This document shows positions 3,993-59,012 of a DNA stretch of 59,012 bases, piece by piece (position 1 is the stretch's first letter; each line of letters opens with the position of its first letter). Source of the DNA: Candidatus Binatia bacterium (GTDB taxonomy: Bacteria; Desulfobacterota; Binatia; UBA1149; CAITLU01); assembly GCA_046261745.1 (NCBI GenBank), contig JBHEOD010000007.1, positions 1-59,012 on the forward strand, in the 5' to 3' direction. Position numbers and translations under genes: made by a program. The notes under the pieces are model-generated. The model ran no database searches, was not told where the DNA came from, and worked only from the letters and a program-made list of their open reading frames with translations.

Positions 3993-6857
<2,865 letters not shown>

Positions 6858-6863
6858 AAACCC

Positions 6864-6908
6864 GGGACAGGTACAGGTTTTCGCGCCGCGCAAATCTGTA
6901 CCTGTCCC
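6864..6908. terminator. 13-bp inverted repeat hairpin after ppdK (inverted pair of the GGGACAGGTAC repeat family)
   Basis: GGGACAGGTACAG (6864-6876) pairs with CTGTACCTGTCCC (6896-6908) across a 19-nt loop. It starts 7 nt after the ppdK stop. Confidence 0.5.
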
Positions 6909-6926
6909 CGATTTCCGATTTTCCAG

Positions 6927-7831: not shown

Positions 7832-7856
7832 AAAAATGGGGTCAGACCCCTTTTTT
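7832..7856 (+). terminator. intrinsic-terminator-like hairpin (copy of the AAATGGGGTCAGACCCCATTT palindrome family) after aroE
   Basis: AAAAATGGGGTCAGACCCCTTTTTT has a GGGG/CCCC stem plus a T-run. It lies 21 nt after the aroE stop. Confidence 0.65.
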
Positions 7857-8660: not shown

Positions 8661-8681
8661 AAATGGGGTCTGACCCCATTT
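8661..8681. repeat. 21-bp perfect palindrome AAATGGGGTCTGACCCCATTT
   Basis: Seen directly in the sequence. It is the first of two tandem units in the 8622-8745 intergenic region. Confidence 0.8.
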
Positions 8682-8707
8682 CGTGAACTTGCCGAACGCG
8701 CGACGCG

Positions 8708-8730
8708 AAATTGGGGTCAGACCCCGTTTT
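8708..8730. repeat. palindromic repeat copy AAATTGGGGTCAGACCCCGTTTT
   Basis: Seen directly in the sequence. This second unit is preceded by TTGCCGAAC, as is the first unit. Confidence 0.8.
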
Positions 8731-50822: not shown

Positions 50823-51785
50823 ATGTCCGATTCCAACATCAAAAACTCTCGCCGTTTGCGCAACTCACGCCCCGACATCGCCGTCGTCGGCGCCGGGGCC
50901 CTGTTTCCCGGCTCGTTCGATGGAAAGGGCTTCTGGAAGGACATCCTCGCCGGAACCGACCTGATCACCGGCGTGCCTGCATCCCACTGGCTCGTCGAGG
51001 ACTACTACGATCCCGATCCGTCGGTGCCCGACAAGACGTACGCGAATCGCGGCGCATTCCTCGGCAACGTCGACTTCGACGCGATGGGCTGGGGGATTCC
51101 GCCCACCATCGTTCCGGAGACGGACACCTCGCAACTCCTCGCGCTGATCGTCGCGCAAAAGGTTCTCGAAGACGCGGCCGCCGGGCCGCTTGGAAAGGCC
51201 GGAGGGGCGCTTAAGAAGGCCGGAGGGCCGCTGGAAAAGTCGGATCATTCCCGCACGTCGGTGATCCTCGGCGTCACGTCCGGGCAGGAACTGCTCGGTT
51301 CCATGGTGAGCCGCCTTCAGAGGCCCGTGTGGACGAAGGCGCTGCGCGAGGCGGGCCTTCCCGAGAACGAGGTCGGCGACATCTGCGAGCGCATCGCGTC
51401 GCACTACACGCCGTGGCGCGAGAGCACGTTCCCCGGCCTGCTCGGCAACGTCGTCGCCGGCCGCATCGCGAACCGGCTCAACCTCGGTGGCACCAACTGC
51501 GTGACGGATGCCGCCTGCGCGTCCACGCTGTCGTCGCTGTCGATGGCAGTCAACGAACTCTACCTCGGCGATTCCGACATGGTGATCACCGGCGGCGTCG
51601 ACACCATGAACGACATCTTCATGTTCATGTGTTTCAGCAAGACGCCCGCACTGTCGCCGAGCGGCGACTGTCGCCCCTTCTCCGACAAGGCCGACGGAAC
51701 GATGCTCGGCGAAGGCCTCGGCATGGTTGCGCTCAAGCGTCTCGAGGACGCCGAGCGCGACGGCAACACGATCCATGCGGTGCTG
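50823..51785 (+). CDS. pfaA: PfaA-like multidomain PKS, 5' fragment (KS N-half) upstream of a +1 frameshift
   Basis: Contains IAVVGAGALFPG and the active-site motif TDAACAST (Cys codon 51516-51518). The frame ends its similarity at GNTIHAVL. Confidence 0.85.
51183..51245 (+). repeat. 3 x 21-bp tandem repeat inside the KS domain
   Basis: GGGCCGCTTGGAAAGGCCGGA / GGGGCGCTTAAGAAGGCCGGA / GGGCCGCTGGAAAAGTCGGAT encode GPLGKAG GALKKAG GPLEKSD. Confidence 0.8.
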
Positions 51786-51786
51786 G

Positions 51787-54700
51787 AAGGCGGTCGGGTC
51801 CTCCTCCGACGGTCGCTCGAAAAGCGTGTACGCGCCGGTGCCCGAAGGCCAGGCGCGCGCGCTCAGGCGCGCATACGAACTGGCCGGTTACGGCCCGGAA
51901 ACCGTGGAATTCGTCGAGGCCCACGGTACCGCCACCAAGGCCGGCGACGCAGCCGAGTTCGAAGGACTGCAGACCGTCTTCAACGAAAGCGGACGCGCGG
52001 AACGACAGTGGTGCGCGCTCGGTTCCGTGAAGTCGCAGATCGGGCACACCAAGGCCGCGGCCGGAGCAGCCGGGTTGTTCAAGGCAGTGATGGCGCTTCA
52101 CCACCGCGTCGTGCCGCCGATCATCAAGATCGATCGTCCGAATCCTGCGCTGAAGCTCGAGGCGTCGCCATTTCACCTGCCGTCGCATGCGCGTCCGTGG
52201 GTTCGCGACTCCTCCCATCCGCGCCGTGCGTCGGTCAGCTCGTTCGGTTTCGGCGGCTCCAACTTCCATGTCGCGCTCGAGGAGTACGCGGGCGACGCGC
52301 GCACGCCGCGGCTTCGCACGTTCAGTCACGAACTCGTCGTCGTAGACGGAACGAGCGGCGCCGAAGTGGCGGCGCTCGCGCGCAGCCACGCCGCCGCTGC
52401 CACCAAGGACGGCTATCTCGCGTGGCTCGCGCACGAGTCGCAGCGCAGCTACCGCGCCGATTTCGCCGCGCGTCTGGCCGTCGTTGCCAGCGATGAAACC
52501 GACCTTGCGTTCAAGCTCGAACAGGCCGCCGCGCGTATCGAGAGTGACGCCTCGACGCCGTTCTCCACGCCGACCGGCATTCACTTCGGCACGTCGGCGC
52601 GCGAAGGCCGCCTGGCCTTTCTTTTCCCGGGCCAGGGCAGTCAGTACGCGGGCATGGGCGCCTCGCTCGCGATGCATTTCGACAAGGCATTGGCGGTCTG
52701 GGACCGCGCGGCGGGAATGGACTGGCGCGGCGGCGCGACACTGCACGACGTCGTCTTTCCGCGAACCGCGTACGACGACGAGACGCGCGCCGTGCAGGCG
52801 CAGCGCCTGATGGCCACCGAGTGGGCCCAGCCGGCCATCGGCTGCATGAGCCTCTCGCTGCTGGCGCTGCTCGAGGAGGCCGGCCTCGAGGCCGACTGCT
52901 TCGGCGGACACAGCTTCGGCGAAGTCACCGCGCTCGGTGCGGCGGGCGTGCTGTCTGAAGCAGACGTCGTGCGCGTTGCACGTCGCCGCGGCGAGTTGAT
53001 GAAGGAAGCCGCGCGCACGCCGGGTTCGATGATCGCGGTGCCTCTGTCGGCGGGCGAGATGCAGAATATGCTCGACGGCTGGGGCGTCGACGTCGTGATC
53101 GCGAATCACAACGGCCCCGGCCAGGTGGTGCTTTCGGGAACGACACCCAACATCGAAGCAGTCGAGACGAAACTGAGGGACGCCGGTATCCACTCGCACC
53201 GTCTGGGCGTGGCCACCGCGTTTCATTCCCCGGTTGTGGCCGACGCGGCGCACGCGTTCGCGGACTGGCTCGGCGACGTGTCGTTCCGCGCACCGTCGCG
53301 CCCCGTCTACGCGAACACCACCGCCAGGGCCCATCCCGAAGACGCGTCGACCATCCGCACCAGCCTCGGAGAACAGCTCGCCCATCCCGTGCTCTTCATG
53401 GAAATGATCGAGGCGATGTACCGCGGCGGCGTGCGCACGTTCGTCGAGGTCGGCCCCGGCTCCATCCTCACGGACCTCACCGCCCGCATTCTGGAGGGGC
53501 GCCCGCACTCGGCGATTCACCTCGACCGCAAGGGCGTGGACGGGTTGCGCGGCCTGCTGCAGGGCATGGCGGCCCTGGTCGCCGGCGGACACCCGATCGA
53601 CTTCGCAGCGCTATGGTCCGAGTACGCGGCGCCGGCAAACCCGCACGACCGCGCGCAGCCAAAACTGAATCTGCCGATCAACGGCAGCAACTACGGCAAA
53701 CCGTATCCTCCCGAGGGCGGCATCGTTCCCGGACCCAACCCTCCTCGCCCCTCTGCCGCACCAGCACCGTCTCCGGCCCCGGCCCCGGCCGTCGCTGCCC
53801 GTGCCGCGGCACCGAAGTCCACGCCTTTCGTCGCAGCCATCAAGTCGCCGTCCGTCTCCGCGAACGCGGCGCCGCGCGCCGGCAACGTCCGCAAGATGGG
53901 CAACTGGGCGCAAGCGTTCGAAAGCGCGCAGCGCCAGACCGCCGACGCGCACTCGGCCTACATCCAGGCCATGGCCCGCAGCCACCAGGCCTTCCTCGAA
54001 ACCGTCAGCCACGGCTTCAACGCCCTCGAAAATCGGGGACAGGTACAGATTTCCGTCGAGAATCAGCCGCCACTTTCCGCCAATCACGAGAAATGGGGTC
54101 AGACCCCATTTTCCCAAACCGCCAATCCGGGACGCGTGCAGAGCGCCGAACGCGTCGGCGCGGAAGTCTTCGTGGTAGCGCCGGCGCCTGCGGCGGATGC
54201 CGTCGCGAGCGCACCTTCGGTTCCCCCATCGGCCGATCTCGAAGCGCTGATGCTCGACATCGTTTCGGAGAAGACAGGCTACCCGACCGAAATGCTCACC
54301 ATGGAGATGGAACTCGAGGGCGACCTCGGCATCGACTCCATCAAGCGAGTCGAGATCCTCGCGGCCATGCAGGAGCGTGCGCCCGGGCTTCCGGAAGTGG
54401 AAGTGCGCGTGATGGCCAAGCTGCGCACGCTCGGCCAGATCGTCGACTACATGAACGGCGAGATCGCCAAGACCGGCGGCGGAGCGCCGAACGCCTCGGG
54501 CGAAGTTGCACCGAGCGCTGCAGGCGCCGCTGCGCCGGGCGCCGCGCCCGCCTCAGCGCCATCGCACACCGCTCCCGGCGCAGGCCAAGCGCTCGGCCGC
54601 TACATTCTCGAAGCCGTCGAGTCGAGCCCCATCGGCATGTCCGAGCGCGGAATCCTCGGCGAGGGTCGCGTGGTCGTCATCGACGACGGCACCGACCTTC

Positions 54701-56961
54701 CCGAATGCATCGTGCGCGAGCTGGCCGTACACGGCATCACCGCCGAAGTCTCCGAAAATGTTCCGCCAGCCGACCTGCGCGGAGTGATTTTCCTCGGTGG
54801 ACTGCGCGTCATTGCCGATGACAACGACGCCATCGCCATCAATCGCGAAGCCTTCGCGATTGCGAAGAAAGCGGCCGCCTGGTTCGCGGAACCGGGCTCC
54901 GATGACAAGCCTCGCCACGGCTTTTTCCTGATGGTGCAGGACACCGGCGGAACCTTTGGAACCGCGGGCATCGATCCGCGGCGCGCGTGGCTCGCCGGCT
55001 GCGCCGGCCTCGCGCGAACGCTCGCACAGGAATGGCCGGCCGTTGCCGTCAAGGCCGTCGACCTCGAGCGCGGCGATCGTCCGTCCGCGCAGCTGGCGCG
55101 CGCGCTCGTCGACGAGTTGCTCGCCGGCGGCCCCGATCTCGACGTCGGACTCACGCGCGACAACCGTCGCGTGGTGCTGCGCAGCACCGAGGCACCCGCG
55201 GCCGGCGGCGCGTTTCGCCTTGCCGACGGAGACGTCGTCGTCGCATCCGGCGGCGCGCGCGGTGTCACCGCCGCAACGCTCACGGCACTCGCCGGACAGG
55301 CGCGGCTTCGTTTCGTGCTGCTCGGCCGCACCACCGAGGAGCCCGAGCCCCGCGAGTGCGAAGGAATCGCCGATGCCGCCGCTCTCAAGCGCGTGCTGCT
55401 CGCCCGTGCGAAAACCACCGGCGCAACGCTCACACCGGCCCAGCTCGGGCGGCAGGTTTCCGACATCCTCGCGCGCCGCGAGATCCGCGCCACCATCGAC
55501 GCCATCGAGGCGGCCGGGTCGCAGGCGCGTTACGCGGCCACCGACGTGACCAGCGAGCAGGCGCTCGCAGCCACGCTAGCCGGCGTGCGCGAAACGTGGG
55601 GCCCGATTCACGCCGTCGTGCACGGAGCCGGCGTGATCCAGGACCGCTTCGTGGCCGAGAAGACCACCGAGCAGTTCAACCGCGTCTTCGACACCAAGGT
55701 GAAGGGCCTGCGCGCGCTGCTCGCCGCCACGGCCGCCGATCCGCTCAAGGCGCTGTGCCTGTTCTCCTCCGTGGCTGCCCGCTGCGGAAACATGGGCCAG
55801 AGCGACTACGCGATGGCCAACGAGATCCTCAACAAAGTGGCGCTCGCGGAGAACGCGCGTCGCGGCGACGCGTGCGTCGTTCGTTCTCTCGGCTGGGGTC
55901 CGTGGGCCGGCGGCATGGTCAGCCCGGAGCTCCAGGCGCGTTTCGAAACCATGGGAGTGCCGCTGATCGATCTTGCAAGCGGCGCGCAGATGTTCGTGGA
56001 CGAGCTGATGGGCGCCTCCGGCGGCGCCGACGTCGAACTCGTGCTCGGCGGCCGGCCGCGTCCGGAAGCGCTGCTGCCGTCACCCGACGGACGGCACCTG
56101 TGCCTCGACGTAACCGTCAGCCGCGTGAGTCATCCCTATCTGTGCGACCACAGCATTCGCGCAACGCCGGTCGTTCCGGTGGCGCTGGCCATCGAGTGGT
56201 TCGGGCGCGCAGCGCGCGCGTTCGCGCCGGACCTGTCGCTGGCGGCGCTGCACGACGTCAAGGTGCTGCGCGGGATTCCGCTGCGCGACTTCGAAAGCGG
56301 ACGCCTCCACCTCGTGGTGCACTGCCGTCAGCGCAGCGCAGGCAACGACCATTCGCTGTCGCTCGAACTTGCGGACACCAGCGGAGCCGCGTTCTACCGC
56401 TGCGTGGCCGACATGGTGCACGTGCGGGCCGCCCACCAGGGCTTCACGAACGGACGCTCGCACTATCTCAAGGATCTTCAGCTGGAGGCCTGGGGCGACC
56501 GTCTCGTCTACGACGGAGAAGTGCTGTTCCACGGCCCGAGGTTCCAGATGATCCGCAGCATCGACGGCGTGTCCGACAGCGGCATCGCTGCCCACCTCGA
56601 CGGCGTGGCTGCGTTCGACTGGCATCTGGGCAGCGACGGCGTTCCGAGCGCTTCGCGGCTGGCCGAGATCGACGACTGGCATACCGATCCGGTTGCGTTC
56701 GACGGCGGACTGCAGCTGGCGCTGCTGTGGTGCAAGCACAAGCTCGGCCGCGCATCCCTGCCGACCAGCATCGCGTCGGTTCGAACGTGGAGCGACGGGG
56801 CGGCGCGCGGCCCCATCCACTGCACGGTCATCGGTCGCGACTCGCGCGGCGCCAGGTCGCTGTCGGACGTGGTGTTCCGCGACAGCCGGGGCGATGTGTT
56901 CGCCGAGTTCGAAGGCGTCGAAACGCACTTGGTGCCCGAAGCCGACGACGGCCGGGCCTGA
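51787..56961 (+). CDS. pfaA: PfaA-like multidomain PKS, 3' fragment: KS C-half - AT - single ACP - KR - DH
   Basis: KAVGSSSDGRSKSVYAP continues the KS. Further motifs are EAHGTAT, GHTKAAAG, AT FLFPGQGSQY/GHSFGE, ACP LGIDSIKRVE, KR VVASGGARGVTAA, and DH HPYLCDHSIRATPVVP. Confidence 0.85.
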   Translation, partial: KAVGSSSDGRSKSVYAPVPEGQARALRRAYELAGYGPETVEFVEAHGTATKAGDAAEFEGLQTVFNESGRAERQWCALGSVKSQIGHTKAAAGAAGLFKAVMALHHRVVPPIIKIDRPNPALKLEASPFHLPSHARPWVRDSSHPRRASVSSFGFGGSNFHVALEEYAGDARTPRLRTFSHELVVVDGTSGAEVAALARSHAAAATKDGYLAWLAHESQRSYRADFAARLAVVASDETDLAFKLEQAAARIESDASTPFSTPTGIHFGTSAREGRLAFLFPGQGSQYAGMGASLAMHFDKALAVWDRAAGMDWRGGATLHDVVFPRTAYDDETRAVQAQRLMATEWAQPAIGCMSLSLLALLEEAGLEADCFGGHSFGEVTALGAAGVLSEADVVRVARRRGELMKEAARTPGSMIAVPLSAGEMQNMLDGWGVDVVIANHNGPGQVVLSGTTPNIEAVETKLRDAGIHSHRLGVATAFHSPVVADAAHAFADWLGDVSFRAPSRPVYANTTARAHPEDASTIRTSLGEQLAHPVLFMEMIEAMYRGGVRTFVEVGPGSILTDLTARILEGRPHSAIHLDRKGVDGLRGLLQGMAALVAGGHPIDFAALWSEYAAPANPHDRAQPKLNLPINGSNYGKPYPPEGGIVPGPNPPRPSAAPAPSPAPAPAVAARAAAPKSTPFVAAIKSPSVSANAAPRAGNVRKMGNWAQAFESAQRQTADAHSAYIQAMARSHQAFLETVSHGFNALENRGQVQISVENQPPLSANHEKWGQTPFSQTANPGRVQSAERVGAEVFVVAPAPAADAVASAPSVPPSADLEALMLDIVSEKTGYPTEMLTMEMELEGDLGIDSIKRVEILAAMQERAPGLPEVEVRVMAKLRTLGQIVDYMNGEIAKTGGGAPNASGEVAPSAAGAAAPGAAPASAPSHTAPGAGQALGRYILEAVESSPIGMSERGILGEGRVVVIDDGTDLPECIVRELAVHGITAEVSENVPPADLRGVIFLGGLRVIADDNDAIAINREAFAIAKKAAAWFAEPGSDDKPRHGFFLMVQDTGGTFGTAGIDPRRAWLAGCAGLARTLAQEWPAVAVKAVDLERGDRPSAQLARALVDELLAGGPDLDVGLTRDNRRVVLRSTEAPAAGGAFRLADGDVVVASGGARGVTAATLTALAGQARLRFVLLGRTTEEPEPRECEGIADAAALKRVLLARAKTTGATLTPAQLGRQVSDILARREIRATIDAIEAAGSQARYAATDVTSEQALAATLAGVRETWGPIHAVVHGAGVIQDRFVAEKTTEQFNRVFDTKVKGLRALLAATAADPLKALCLFSSVAARCGNMGQSDYAMANEILNKVALAENARRGDACVVRSLGWGPWAGGMVSPELQARFETMGVPLIDLASGAQMFVDELMGASGGADVELVLGGRPRPEALLPSPDGRHLCLDVTVSRVSHPYLCDHSIRATPVVPVALAIEWFGRAARAFAPDLSLAALHDVKVLRGIPLRDFESGRLHLVVHCRQRSAGNDHSLSLELADTSGAAFYRCVADMVHVRAAHQGFTNGRSHYLKDLQLEAWGDRLVYDGEVLFHGPRFQMIRSIDGVSDSGIAAHLDGVAAFDWHLGSDGVPSASRLAEIDDWHTDPVAFDGGLQLALLWCKHKLGRASLPTSIASVRTWSDGAARGPIHCTVIGRDSRGARSLSDVVFRDSRGDVFAEFEGVETHLVPEADDGRA
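54031..54051 (+). repeat. copy of the AATCGG..GGGACAGGTAC repeat family inside pfaA
   Basis: AATCGGGGACAGGTACAGATT matches the reverse complement of 6896-6916, just downstream of ppdK. Confidence 0.75.
54091..54111. repeat. 21-bp perfect palindrome AAATGGGGTCAGACCCCATTT inside pfaA
   Basis: It is the same palindrome family as the intergenic copies at 7832, 8661 and 8708. Confidence 0.8.
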
Positions 56962-56964
56962 GTC

Positions 56965-59012
56965 GTGACCAAGCCCGCCTTCGAACCGATCGCGGTGGTC
57001 GGCCGCGCGTGCCTGTTGCCGGGCGCGACGACTCCCGAACAGCTCTGGCAGCTCGTGCTGGAAGGGCGCGACGTCATTGGCCCAGCGCCCGAGGGACGCT
57101 GGGGCGTGGCCAGGGAGAAGATCCTTGCCGCCGCCGGAGCCTCCGCCAGCGATCGCGCGTGGTCGGACCGCGGCGGTTACGTCGAAAGCTTCGCGAGCGT
57201 GTTCGATCCCGAGGGCTTCGATGGACTGACGGCCGCCCAGGTGCTGGCCCTCGATCCTCTCTTCCAGTGGCTGCTGCACACGACGCGCGAAGCGCTGCGC
57301 GATGCCGGCGGCGCGCACGGCAGGGTCGGAGCCGTCTTCGGCAACCTTTCCTTTCCGTCCGCTTCGATGGCGGCATTCGCCGAGGCGGTGTGGTCGGATC
57401 GCGAGGCGCGGCCGGATGCGCGCAACCGTTTCTCGTCGGGCCTGCCGGCGCTCATTCTCGAGAAGGCGCTCGCGCTCGAAGCCGGCGCCTTCGCGCTTGA
57501 CGCCGCGTGCGCGAGCTCGCTTTACGCCATCAAGAGTGCGTGCGACCGGCTGCACGACGGACGCGCCGACCTCGTGCTGGCCGGCGCGGTCAACTGCGCG
57601 GACGACCTCTTCATCCACGTCGGCTTCACCGCGCTCGGTGCGCTGAGCCCGAGCGGCCGCAGTCGGCCGTTCCATGCCGGCGCCGACGGCCTGGTGCCGG
57701 CTGAAGGCGCCGCGTTCGTCGCGCTCAAGCGCCTGGCGGATGCCGAGCGCGACGGCAACACCATCCATGCTGTGCTGCGCGGCGTCGGCCTTTCCAACGA
57801 CGGGCGCGGCAAGGGTTTCCTGGTGCCTTCCGAGGAAGGCCAGACGCGCGCGATTCGCGCGGCCTACGAAGCCGCGTCCCTGTCACCTTCCGACATCTCG
57901 CTGCTCGAATGCCACGCCACCGGCACCACGATCGGCGACGCGACCGAGCTGCGCAGCCTTGGCAACGTCTTCACGGGCGCCGCGGCCGCGCTGCCGATCG
58001 GCTCGCTCAAGTCGAACATGGGCCACCTGATCACCGCCGCAGGAACGGCCGCGCTGATCAAGGTGATCGAAGCGATGCGAGCCGGCGTGCGTCCGCCGAC
58101 GCTGCACGTGGAGACGCCAACCGCAGACCTCGCCGGCACGCCGTTTCGGCTACTGACCGCAGCCGAGCCATGGGACGTCGCCGACGGAGCCACGAGACGC
58201 GCCGGCATCTCCGCCTTCGGCTTCGGCGGCAACAACGCCCATCTCCTCGTCGAGCAGTACGACAATCGGAAGTCCGGGACAGGTACTTCGGCGCGAGAGA
58301 CGGCCGTCGCGCCCGAGCCGCTTGCAATCGTCGCCATCGGCGTCGTCGCCGCCGGCTGCCGCAATGTCGAAGAGTTTGCGACGGCACTGCGTGACCGTCG
58401 CTCGCAGCTCCAGCTTCGCGACGACGGATGCTTCGAAGGCCGCGCCGGCCAGCTGGTTCTCGACGTCGCGGCGCTCGGCGTGCCGCCCAGCGATCTTCGC
58501 CAGACGCTCGCGCAGCAGTTGCTCATGCTCGGCGCGGCGCGCGAAGCGGTGGCCAACCTGGAGTCCTGCACCCGACTCGAGCAAACCGGCGGCGCCTTGC
58601 CACGAGCCGGCGACCGCGACGGCGTTCTTCCGCGCGAGCGCAGCGGAGTGTTCGTCGGCATGGGCGTCGATGCGGAGGTGGCGCGCTACGGGATGCGCTG
58701 GCGAAACACGTCCGGCGACTCTGCCGACGGCGTCGTCGGTGCGCTGACGTCGGCCGGCGTGATCGGCACGATGCCGAACATGACCGCCAACCGCATCAAC
58801 CGCCTGTTCGATCTTGGCGGCGCGAGCTGCACGGTTTCGGCCGAGGAGCGCTCCGGCCTCGTCGCGCTCGAGATGGCGGCGCGGGCGCTGCGCTTGGGCG
58901 AACTGGACGCCGCCACGATGCAGGACCGGTTGGACCATGCCGACATATTCGTCTCGGCGGCGATCTACGAGCCGTTCGGGCTGGCCGTGCTCGAAGCGGC
59001 GCAAGCCCGATG
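56965..59012 (+). CDS. pfaC: PfaC-like KS-CLF protein (3' partial; the last ~30 codons switch to a glycosyltransferase-like sequence)
   Basis: The frame is open from GTG 56965, 4 nt after the pfaA stop, to the window end. It is absent from the track because it has no stop. KS motifs are LDAACASS, ECHATGT and SNMGHL. The CLF has SCTVSAEERSG. Confidence 0.85.
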   Translation, partial: MTKPAFEPIAVVGRACLLPGATTPEQLWQLVLEGRDVIGPAPEGRWGVAREKILAAAGASASDRAWSDRGGYVESFASVFDPEGFDGLTAAQVLALDPLFQWLLHTTREALRDAGGAHGRVGAVFGNLSFPSASMAAFAEAVWSDREARPDARNRFSSGLPALILEKALALEAGAFALDAACASSLYAIKSACDRLHDGRADLVLAGAVNCADDLFIHVGFTALGALSPSGRSRPFHAGADGLVPAEGAAFVALKRLADAERDGNTIHAVLRGVGLSNDGRGKGFLVPSEEGQTRAIRAAYEAASLSPSDISLLECHATGTTIGDATELRSLGNVFTGAAAALPIGSLKSNMGHLITAAGTAALIKVIEAMRAGVRPPTLHVETPTADLAGTPFRLLTAAEPWDVADGATRRAGISAFGFGGNNAHLLVEQYDNRKSGTGTSARETAVAPEPLAIVAIGVVAAGCRNVEEFATALRDRRSQLQLRDDGCFEGRAGQLVLDVAALGVPPSDLRQTLAQQLLMLGAAREAVANLESCTRLEQTGGALPRAGDRDGVLPRERSGVFVGMGVDAEVARYGMRWRNTSGDSADGVVGALTSAGVIGTMPNMTANRINRLFDLGGASCTVSAEERSGLVALEMAARALRLGELDAATMQDRLDHADIFVSAAIYEPFGLAVLEAAQAR
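58264..58286 (+). repeat. copy of the AATCGG..GGGACAGGTAC repeat family in the pfaC KS-CLF linker
   Basis: AATCGGAAGTCCGGGACAGGTAC matches the reverse complement of 6901-6923 at 21/23 positions. Confidence 0.7.

What the first reader, a model, noticed from the sequence alone, without database searches (positions are those of the whole stretch)
54031..54125. A composite of two intergenic palindromic repeat families is inserted in-frame into the pfaA AT-ACP linker
The stretch AATCGGGGACAGGTACAGATT...(39 nt)...AAATGGGGTCAGACCCCATTT lies inside the ORF. It is translated as ENRGQVQISVENQPPLSANHEKWGQTPFSQTANPG.
Its first part matches the hairpin arm downstream of ppdK (6896-6916, reverse complement).
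Its second part is the 21-bp perfect palindrome that elsewhere serves as terminator-like hairpins (7832, 8661, 8708).
The segment is visibly less GC-rich than the flanking Ala/Pro linker. It keeps the reading frame without stops.
This looks like a REP/MITE-like element that landed in a tolerant PKS linker. There it could also form a strong mRNA hairpin in mid-gene.
Basis: seen in the sequence. Interest (0 to 1): 0.65.

Follow-up and report, generated by a model that had tools for sequence, protein, structure and literature searches.

The report
REP hairpin repeats translated inside PfaA
Two kinds of small mobile DNA hairpin repeat (REP elements), which normally sit between genes, lie in frame in a flexible linker of a fatty-acid megasynthase gene and are read as protein; at least a dozen other genes of this genome carry such copies, and the phenomenon is already described in other bacteria.

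Summary
Window 54031-54054 is an exact arm of repeat family A. 54091-54111 is an exact copy of palindrome family B. Both are read in frame, without stops, between the AT and ACP domains of a PfaA-like synthase, and GC falls to 52% there against 70-79% in the flanks.

Both families are multi-copy in this MAG (about 318 B units and 154 A arms in 278 clusters). They are nearly absent from 30 relatives. They share a cluster in 23 cases.

Family B has a cognate single-copy RAYT-like tyrosine transposase (C220:5351-6067), flanked by B copies.

The pfaA copy is not unique. At least 12 other genes carry in-frame copies, among them MoeA, RNase R, Lpd, RecX, an FGE-type enzyme and the neighbouring pfaC. 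MoeA orthologues show the empty site.

Two caveats apply:
- The linker is not longer than in orthologues, so the REP-derived 28 codons make up part of a hypervariable linker and are not a net addition.
- The hairpin is modest (-12.7 kcal/mol) and does not look like a terminator.

Intragenic REPs are already in print (Di Nocera 2013; Rickettsia RPEs). This is a new member of a known kind, of low to moderate interest.

The parts
54031..54054 (+). Family A arm AATCGGGGACAGGTACAGATTTCC, read in frame as NRGQVQIS
   Evidence: Exact 24/24 match to C68:38289, and 21/21 to window 6893-6913(-). There are 154 arms genome-wide.
54055..54090 (+). 36-nt spacer between the two repeat units, read as VENQPPLSANHE. 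Its origin is unclear: it may be carried in with the repeats or be old linker.
   Evidence: Mixed A/B clusters elsewhere have gaps of 5-86 nt and unrelated spacers.
54088..54114 (+). Family B REP palindrome (core AAATGGGGTCAGACCCCATTT at 54091-54111), read as KWGQTPF. In RNA it forms a 10-bp stem with a 3-nt loop.
   Evidence: 0 mismatches to the family core. 318 units genome-wide. Fold energy -12.7 kcal/mol.
54121..54144 (+). Possible decayed second A arm AATCCGGGACGCGTGCAGAGCGCC (18/24 to the A consensus). This is tentative.
   Evidence: Read from the sequence. The stretch aligns with L002.
51727..56961 (+). PfaA-like ORF (KS C-terminal part, AT, ACP, KR, DH) that holds the insert
50823..51795 (+). 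N-terminal KS part of the same gene, in another frame. A 1-nt frameshift lies near 51785-51795 (GGCGGTCGGG).
   Evidence: The source's own gene call is the 1707-aa P0003.
58264..58286 (+). Partial family A copy (GGAAGTCCGGGACAGGTAC, 18/19) in frame in the pfaC KS-CLF linker, read as NRKSGTGT
6859..6913 (.).
   Evidence: Fold energy -33.6 kcal/mol.
7834..7854 (.). Intergenic family B copy
8661..8729 (.). Intergenic pair of family B copies (8661-8681 and 8709-8729)

Best explanation
The stretch is REP-derived DNA that has become part of the coding sequence of pfaA.

**The two families.** Both are short and hairpin-forming, and both have expanded in this lineage.
- Family B is the 21-25-nt palindrome AAAATGGGGTCWGACCCCATTTT. 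It has a cognate single-copy RAYT-like Y1 (HUH) transposase that is flanked by B copies.
- Family A has the arm GGAAATCSGGGACAGGTACRGATTTCC. It usually occurs as inverted pairs.
- The two families often settle next to each other, in BIME-like mixed clusters.

**The pfaA copy.** One mixed cluster (a single A arm, a 36-nt spacer and a B palindrome, 84 nt or 28 codons) lies in the hypervariable, presumably unstructured linker between the conserved post-AT helix and the ACP of PfaA. It survives there for three reasons: it is a multiple of three, the units are open in almost all reading frames, and the linker tolerates nearly any sequence.

**Genome-wide picture.** The same process has put copies into surface loops and linkers of at least 12 other genes. 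Most insertions into coding sequence were presumably removed by selection, since only about 5% of clusters are in-frame intragenic.

**Shown:** family membership, copy numbers, lineage specificity, in-frame reading, the RAYT with flanking B copies, the empty site in MoeA orthologues, and the absence of these residues in PfaA orthologues.

**Inferred:**
- The RAYT mobilises B, and perhaps also A.
- The peptide is translated and neutral.
- The B unit arrived in the G000 lineage, while A-type units were in this linker earlier or arrived repeatedly.
For: **Repeats and their spread**
- Exact matches, with none in shuffles.
- 318 B units and 154 A arms in 278 clusters, 23 of them mixed A/B.
- Exact-core counts are 119 (B) and 58 (A) in G000. 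Among 30 relatives, one congener has 9 B cores, another has 1 A core, and the rest have none.

**The transposase**
- C220:5351-6067 matches Pfam Y1_Tnp (E 2e-11). Its best NCBIfam hit is REP_Tyr_transpos (E 1.5e-20).
- It has the HUH motif NHWHML and the Tyr motif RYIERNPV.
- One B copy lies about 80 nt upstream. A B pair starts 17 nt after the stop.
- It is the only Y1_Tnp hit in the assembly.

**In-frame copies in real genes**
- Pfam domains lie around or on both sides of the copies in RNase R, MoeA, an FGE-type sulfatase-modifying enzyme, two AMP-ligases, RecX, a sigma54-AAA/HisKA protein, a sulfatase, Lpd, a GT2 and the PfaC-like protein.
- MoeA orthologues of the same genus and family lack the 19-22 REP-coded residues.

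**PfaA orthologues**
- They have unrelated linker sequence of similar or greater length.

**Reading frames and composition**
- B is stop-free in 5 of 6 frames and A in 6 of 6.
- GC dips to 52% over the insert.
Against: - No orthologue is close enough to show an exact empty site in pfaA. The nearest proteins are 67-69% identical over the region searched.
- The nearest relative (L002) already has A-like arms in the same linker. The event may therefore be old, and the perfect match of the G000 copies to their families would then need gene conversion or re-insertion.
- Family B lacks the GTAG/CGTC tag of classical RAYT-linked REPs.
- The RAYT scores 73.5 bits, below NCBIfam's cut-off of 80.
- No cognate transposase was found for family A, though the assembly is only 78% complete.
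- pfaA carries a frameshift in its KS domain. If that is real, tolerance could simply reflect a dying gene.
Confidence: 0.87

Rival explanations
1. pfaA is a recent pseudogene. The repeats sit in it only because selection on the gene has ceased.
For: - A 1-nt insertion near 51785-51795 splits the KS domain between two frames.
- The source's own gene call starts after it (P0003, 1707 aa).
- The relative L002 has an in-frame TAG in its ACP-KR linker.
Against: - There is only one lesion in about 6.1 kb. The remaining 1744 codons are open with a coding signal on both sides of the insert (LLR 12.7 and 31.4).
- The ACP is 73/73 identical in protein to L002.
- The insert itself is in frame and stop-free.
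- Intact housekeeping genes (Lpd, MoeA, RNase R, RecX) carry the same elements, so a dead host gene is not needed.
- In a 284-contig MAG the frameshift may be an assembly error.
Confidence: 0.15
2. The element has been co-opted. The mid-gene B hairpin would act as a translational pause, an RNase processing or stability site, or a weak internal terminator that tunes expression of the ACP-KR-DH part.
For: - The B unit folds into a 10-bp hairpin followed by UUUUCC.
- REP fragments lie at three joints of the pfa genes.
Against: - The hairpin energy is only -12.7 kcal/mol.
- The 116-nt region folds no better than shuffles (z -0.10).
- The scan calls no terminator here.
- Host genes and positions are unrelated, and orthologues lack the elements. 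This pattern fits neutral survivors.
Confidence: 0.06
3. The composite was not inserted as mobile DNA. It was copied in from another locus by recombination or gene conversion between REP clusters, or it is a remnant of an older intergenic spacer from a time when the gene was split.
For: - Mixed A/B clusters exist elsewhere. One of them (C157:18379-18459) matches the pfaA composite at 74% over 90 nt.
- G000 lacks 13 codons that L002 has just upstream of the A arm, and it has one ACP where its relatives have two.
Against: - The C157 similarity is carried almost wholly by the two repeat cores. Spacers in other clusters are unrelated.
- All orthologues listed that carry KS and ACP have KS-AT-ACP fused in one protein.
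- No data distinguish transposition from conversion.
Confidence: 0.1
4. Assembly artefact: the assembler threaded a repeat copy into the pfaA contig.
For: - The genome is a fragmented MAG with 3.8% contamination.
- The contig end at 58918-59012 reads like an unrelated glycosyltransferase motif.
Against: - The insert is 84 nt, which is shorter than a read.
- It keeps the frame exactly.
- It lies 5 kb from the contig end.
- The flanks align with L002 on both sides.
- Two independent assemblies of the relative (L002 and L003) show A arms in the same linker.
Confidence: 0.03

Closest known systems
Intragenic REPs (GTAG- and CGTC-tagged palindromic repeats), Di Nocera et al. 2013, PMC3733652
   Same: - Short (20-40 nt), high-copy palindromes that are mostly intergenic.
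- Often found as dimers or clusters.
- Some are inserted in frame in known genes, where dimers encode 20-30 residues.
- RAYT genes are flanked by the repeats.
   Different: - Families A and B carry neither a GTAG nor a CGTC tag.
- The host lineage differs: the RAYT's best named relative is from a 'Candidatus Binatia' MAG.
- The pfaA case is a mixed cluster of two families inside a megasynthase linker.
Rickettsia palindromic elements (RPE), Ogata et al. 2000, as summarised in PMC10969869 and PMC3733652
   Same: Palindromic selfish DNA inserted in frame in many unrelated, apparently functional genes. The resulting peptide segments are predicted to be compatible with the host protein's fold and function.
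   Different: - RPEs are about 100-150 bp. As far as I know, no transposase has been linked to them.
- Here the units are 21-27 nt, and family B has a RAYT-like gene.
REPIN/RAYT systems of Pseudomonas and Enterobacteria (Bertels & Rainey 2011, PMC3116915; Nunvar 2010)
   Same: - A single-copy Y1 transposase flanked by its repeats.
- Hundreds of lineage-specific copies.
- Frequent doublets. B-B spacings cluster near 26-29, 48 and 57-62 nt.
   Different: - REPINs are described as extragenic.
- The RAYT here falls below the NCBIfam equivalog cut-off.
- The repeats have no GTAG tag.
BIMEs (bacterial interspersed mosaic elements) of E. coli
   Same: Different REP types are combined in mosaic clusters with variable spacers, like the 23 mixed A/B clusters here. 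The description of BIMEs rests on my own knowledge.
   Different: BIMEs are intergenic, and their REP types are related to one another. Families A and B share little sequence.

Membership tests
REP / REPIN-RAYT system | Short (about 20-40 nt) palindromic unit in high copy number | tested here: met
   - B: 21-25-nt palindrome, 318 units.
- A: 24-27-nt arm, 154 arms, mostly as inverted pairs.
REP / REPIN-RAYT system | Predominantly extragenic location | tested here: met
   About 11-14 of 278 clusters are in-frame intragenic. The rest show no open coding frame across them. There was no gene caller, so the classification rests on a codon log-likelihood model.
REP / REPIN-RAYT system | Single-copy Y1 (HUH) transposase gene flanked by the cognate repeats | tested here: met
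   - C220:5351-6067 is the only PF01797 hit in the assembly.
- B copies lie at 5249-5272 and at 6084-6134.
- This holds for family B only. No such gene was found for family A.
REP / REPIN-RAYT system | The transposase belongs to the RAYT (TnpA-REP) clade | tested here: inconclusive
   The best NCBIfam hit is NF047646 REP_Tyr_transpos, at 73.5 bits against a cut-off of 80.
REP / REPIN-RAYT system | Conserved GTAG (or CGTC) tetranucleotide at one end of the hairpin | tested here: not met
   - The B consensus is AAAAATGGGGTCWGACCCCATTTTT, with no conserved flank.
- The A arm is GGAAATCSGGGACAGGTACRGATTTCC.
- Neither holds GTAG or CGTC.
REP / REPIN-RAYT system | The transposase binds and cleaves the repeat as single-stranded DNA | not testable with these tools
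   This needs biochemistry.
Rickettsia palindromic elements | Units of about 100-150 bp that encode a conserved peptide, in Rickettsia | tested here: not met
   The units here are 21-27 nt and are read in several frames: KMGSDPIF, KWGQTPF and NGVRPHF for B. The case works like an RPE but is not a member.
MITE | Terminal inverted repeats of a parent IS, plus target-site duplication | tested here: inconclusive
   The units are single hairpins with no distinct terminal repeats. Target-site duplications could not be assessed without exact empty sites at DNA level.
PfaA-type PUFA/polyketide synthase subunit | Domain order KS-AT-ACP(n)-KR-DH, followed by a KS-CLF-DH subunit | tested here: met
   - Pfam on P0001, P0002 and P0123.
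- Relatives are annotated as PfaA.
- The neighbouring gene in L001 has KS-KS-FabA-FabA-acyltransferase.
- G000 has only one ACP.

The most novel reading that the evidence does not exclude
In this lineage the REP/RAYT elements are more than tolerated passengers. They would be a recurrent source of linker and loop sequence, and they would mark the seams at which the pfa megasynthase is remodelled. REP fragments lie at the AT-ACP, KS-CLF and DH joints. G000 has lost 13 codons and one ACP next to the cluster. Alternatively, the mid-gene hairpin could serve as a pause or processing signal between domains.
Probability: 0.07. Interest if true: 0.6.

Novelty: new member of a known kind. Interest (0 to 1): 0.3.

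Why it matters
This is a clean, well-documented example of REP-type selfish DNA being read as protein, in a little-studied lineage. One genome holds a cognate RAYT, two cooperating repeat families and more than a dozen host genes, including housekeeping enzymes.

- **For annotation:** odd low-GC peptide blocks such as KMGSDPIF, KWGQTPF or NPGQVRIS in proteins of this group are repeat-derived and are not functional motifs.
- **For PUFA and polyketide synthase engineering:** the post-AT helix to ACP linker accepts about 28 foreign codons.

It opens no new question, because the phenomenon is already in print.

Tried and rejected

- The genome search with the whole PfaA protein failed once. I went on with DNA, pattern and other queries.
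- The look-up of encoding contigs failed once and worked on retry.
I could therefore check neither the KS frameshift, nor read support for the insert, nor strain polymorphism, nor RNA-seq ends.

**Census**
It was too crude and was replaced by a codon log-likelihood model.
- The strict model still misses cases that Pfam verifies (MoeA, the C241 ligase). The count is therefore a lower bound.
- Classifying flanking gene orientation was uninformative: 174 of 262 clusters lacked a clear coding signal on one side.

**Ideas rejected or left open**
- I considered that C157:18379-18459 is a homologous composite and possible donor. I rejected this because the match rests on the two cores.
- I considered that the L002 linker holds an orthologous decayed B. 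The MAFFT alignment suggests it, but a global pairwise alignment pairs the A arms differently. The point stays open.
- Same-genus genomes G001-G005 gave no DNA match to this stretch of pfaA. A protein search for the pfa genes in them was not done, and no near empty site was available.
Full report
**1. The observation**

The sequence is as described. AATCGGGGACAGGTACAGATT lies at 54031-54051. A 39-nt gap follows, then AAATGGGGTCAGACCCCATTT at 54091-54111. All of it lies inside ORF 51727..56961(+) and reads ENRGQVQISVENQPPLSANHEKWGQTPFSQTANPG.

- The first part matches 6893-6913(-) at 21/21, and 6859-6879(+) with three mismatches. These two form an inverted pair.
- The second part recurs at 7834, 8661 and 8709.
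- No shuffle gave a match for either pattern.
Nothing else differs.
- GC is 0.52 at 54030-54119, against 0.70-0.79 upstream and 0.72-0.74 downstream.
- Pfam puts the AT domain at residues 298-588 and the ACP at 843-908 of P0001. The insert is at 769-803. It sits directly after a conserved helix (NWAQAFESAQRQTADAHSAYIQAMARSHQAFLETVSHGFNAL) and 39 residues before the ACP.

**2. The two repeat families**

The window is contig C252 of a 3.84-Mb, 284-contig MAG with 66.7% GC.

*Family B* has the consensus AAAAATGGGGTCWGACCCCATTTTT.
- There are 319 exact GGGGTCWGACCCC cores and 318 units by fuzzy search.
- It occurs as singles (88 clusters), pairs (75) and triples (14).
- Start-to-start spacings cluster near 26-29, 48 and 57-62 nt.

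*Family A* has the arm GGAAATCSGGGACAGGTACRGATTTCC.
- There are 154 arms.
- Typically two inverted arms form a long hairpin just after a stop codon, but single arms also occur.
- The 6859-6913 pair folds at -33.6 kcal/mol.

Twenty-three of the 278 clusters mix A and B, with gaps of 5-86 nt and unrelated spacers. The pfaA composite, with a 39-nt gap between the units as defined in the census, is one of these mosaic clusters.

Both families are lineage-specific. Exact-core counts are 119 (B) and 58 (A) in G000. One congener has 9 B cores, another has 1 A core, and the other 28 relatives have none.

**3. A cognate transposase**

The assembly has one Y1_Tnp (PF01797) gene, at C220:5351-6067, encoding 238 aa.
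- It carries the HUH motif (NHWHML) and the catalytic Tyr motif (RYIERNPV).
- A B copy lies about 80 nt upstream. A B pair starts 17 nt after its stop.
- Its best NCBIfam hit is REP_Tyr_transpos at 73.5 bits, just under the cut-off of 80.
- It has thousands of relatives in metagenomes. The best named one is from a 'Candidatus Binatia' MAG at 60% identity.

This is the REPtron layout for family B. No transposase was found for family A, but the assembly is only 78% complete.

**4. The pfaA copy is one of many in-frame copies**

I trained a codon log-likelihood model on 462 long ORFs. It finds 11 clusters that lie in an open frame with a coding signal on both sides. Pfam confirms the hosts and adds two more:

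| Host gene | Contig | What is inserted |
|---|---|---|
| RNase R | C135 | One B inside the RNB domain. An A-like PGQVRI plus two decayed B units between RNB and S1. |
| MoeA | C57 | B pair inside the MoCF domain |
| FGE-type sulfatase-modifying enzyme | C201 | B pair |
| AMP-ligase | C241 | B |
| AMP-ligase | C223 | A+A+A- |
| RecX | C17 | B pair |
| sigma54-AAA/HisKA protein | C269 | A pair, plus three further B-type units seen by eye in the translated ORF |
| Sulfatase-domain protein | C113 | B pair |
| Dihydrolipoyl dehydrogenase-type (Lpd) | C94 | A whole A+A- hairpin between the FAD/NAD and dimerisation domains |
| GT2 | C65 | A+A- pair (the Pfam match around this N-terminal site is weak) |
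| PfaC-like protein | C84 | B pair in the DH region |

A partial A copy also sits in frame in the pfaC KS-CLF linker of this window, at 58264-58286.

For MoeA the empty site is visible. Six orthologues from the same genus and family lack the 19-22 REP-coded residues between ...PVALARL and ...AIPGYPVSA.

Family B is read in all three frames, as KMGSDPIF, KWGQTPF/KRGLTPF and NGVRPHF.
- The unit is stop-free in five of six frames.
- The sixth frame (centre T, GTC TGA) is not seen among the coding copies.
- Family A is open in all six frames.

In-frame intragenic clusters are about 5% of all clusters, in a genome where most DNA presumably codes for protein. This fits strong purging, with survival only in tolerant loops and linkers.

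**5. Orthologues of PfaA**

The nearest proteins are only 67-69% identical over the region searched. No exact empty site is available.

In an alignment of 18 sequences (G000 plus 17 orthologues), the helix and the ACP are highly conserved while the linker between them is hypervariable. From helix to ACP it is 207 nt in G000, 303 in L002, 279 in L001 and 198 in L006. The REP-derived 28 codons are therefore not a net addition. They make up about 40% of a linker of ordinary length.

P0005, P0007, P0008 and the others have unrelated Ala/Pro/Thr-rich sequence there.

The closest relative is P0004, seen in two independent assemblies (L002 and L003).
- It has three family-A-like arms in frame: one before the helix and two after it, read as NRGQVQVS, KKGGQVHF and ENQGQVQVS.
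- Its linker is significantly similar to that of G000 (z 7.3), while the L001 linker is not (z 1.5).
- Whether it also holds a decayed B depends on the alignment used.

My reading is that A-type units colonised this linker before the two lineages split, or did so repeatedly. The perfect B unit was added in the G000 lineage, where B expanded.

**6. Function**

In RNA the B unit forms a 10-bp stem with a 3-nt loop, at -12.7 kcal/mol. The single A arm has no stable fold (-3.6 kcal/mol). The 116-nt region folds no better than shuffles (z -0.10), and the scan calls no terminator. Nothing points to a role beyond a tolerated passenger, but no expression data could be examined.

**7. Caveats**

- pfaA has a 1-nt frameshift inside its KS domain, at GGCGGTCGGG near 51785-51795. 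The N-terminal KS part is in ORF 50823..52496, and the source's own gene call starts after the lesion. This may be an assembly error or a recent inactivation.
- The rest of the gene is intact. Its ACP is 73/73 identical in protein to that of L002.
- Intact housekeeping genes carry the same elements, so a dead host gene is not needed to explain the insert.

**8. Comparison with what is known**

- Intragenic REPs, including dimers that encode 20-30 residues in known genes, were surveyed by Di Nocera et al. 2013 (PMC3733652).
- In-frame Rickettsia palindromic elements have been known since 2000.
- RAYT-flanked REPs and REPINs are well described.
- The present families differ in lacking the GTAG/CGTC tag, in host lineage, and in forming a two-family mosaic inside a megasynthase linker.
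- Earlier notes of this scan report many comparable cases in other genomes.

**Verdict.** This is a new member of a known kind, and its interest is low to moderate.

Noticed in passing
window 51785-51795: A 1-nt insertion (GGCGGTCGGG; one G too many relative to ...AVLEGVGSSSDGRSKSVYAP) splits the pfaA KS domain between ORF 50823..52496 and ORF 51727..56961. It is either an assembly error or a recent pseudogenisation.
   Followed up: partly
window 58264-58286: A partial family A copy (GGAAGTCCGGGACAGGTAC) lies in frame in the pfaC KS-CLF linker, read as NRKSGTGT. It is a second REP-derived stretch in the same gene cluster.
   Followed up: yes
G000 C84:3230-3303 (- strand): A family B pair lies in frame (KRGQTPFSAAGATRTGTTRKRGLTPF) in the DH region of a PfaC-like protein (FabA x2, PS-DH, acyltransferase). 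This ORF is probably the continuation of the pfaC gene that runs off the window's end.
   Followed up: partly
G000 C220:5249-6134: REPtron: a RAYT-like Y1 transposase gene (5351-6067) with one family B copy upstream and a B pair downstream. It is the only Y1_Tnp gene in the assembly.
   Followed up: yes
G000 C94:3421-3470: A complete family A hairpin (A+A-, about 50 nt) is read in frame (EIRDRYGFPAKSVPVPDF) in a dihydrolipoyl dehydrogenase-type gene, between the Pyr_redox_2 and dimerisation domains.
   Followed up: partly
G000 C135 (- strand), RNase R ORF residues ~443 and ~665-700: RNase R carries one B unit inside the RNB domain. In the RNB-S1 linker it carries an A-like PGQVRI plus two B units that share the same G-to-A change (CAGGGTCAGACCCC). 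This is a second in-frame mixed composite.
   Followed up: partly
L002:5640-5650 (also in L003): In the closest relative, pfaA is cut by an in-frame TAG in the ACP-KR linker, and the reading frame continues unchanged behind it. The gene is called as two (KS-AT-ACP2 and KR-DH) in two independent assemblies.
   Followed up: no
window 58918-59012: The last 95 nt of the contig read ...DHADIFVSAAIYEPFGLAVLEAAQAR in the pfaC frame. To my eye this resembles a glycosyltransferase (GT1-type) motif and not a CLF domain; no domain search was run on it. It may be a chimeric contig end.
   Followed up: no
window 53612-56961 versus L001, L002 and L006: G000 PfaA has a single ACP, where the three nearest relatives have two tandem ACPs.
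   Followed up: no
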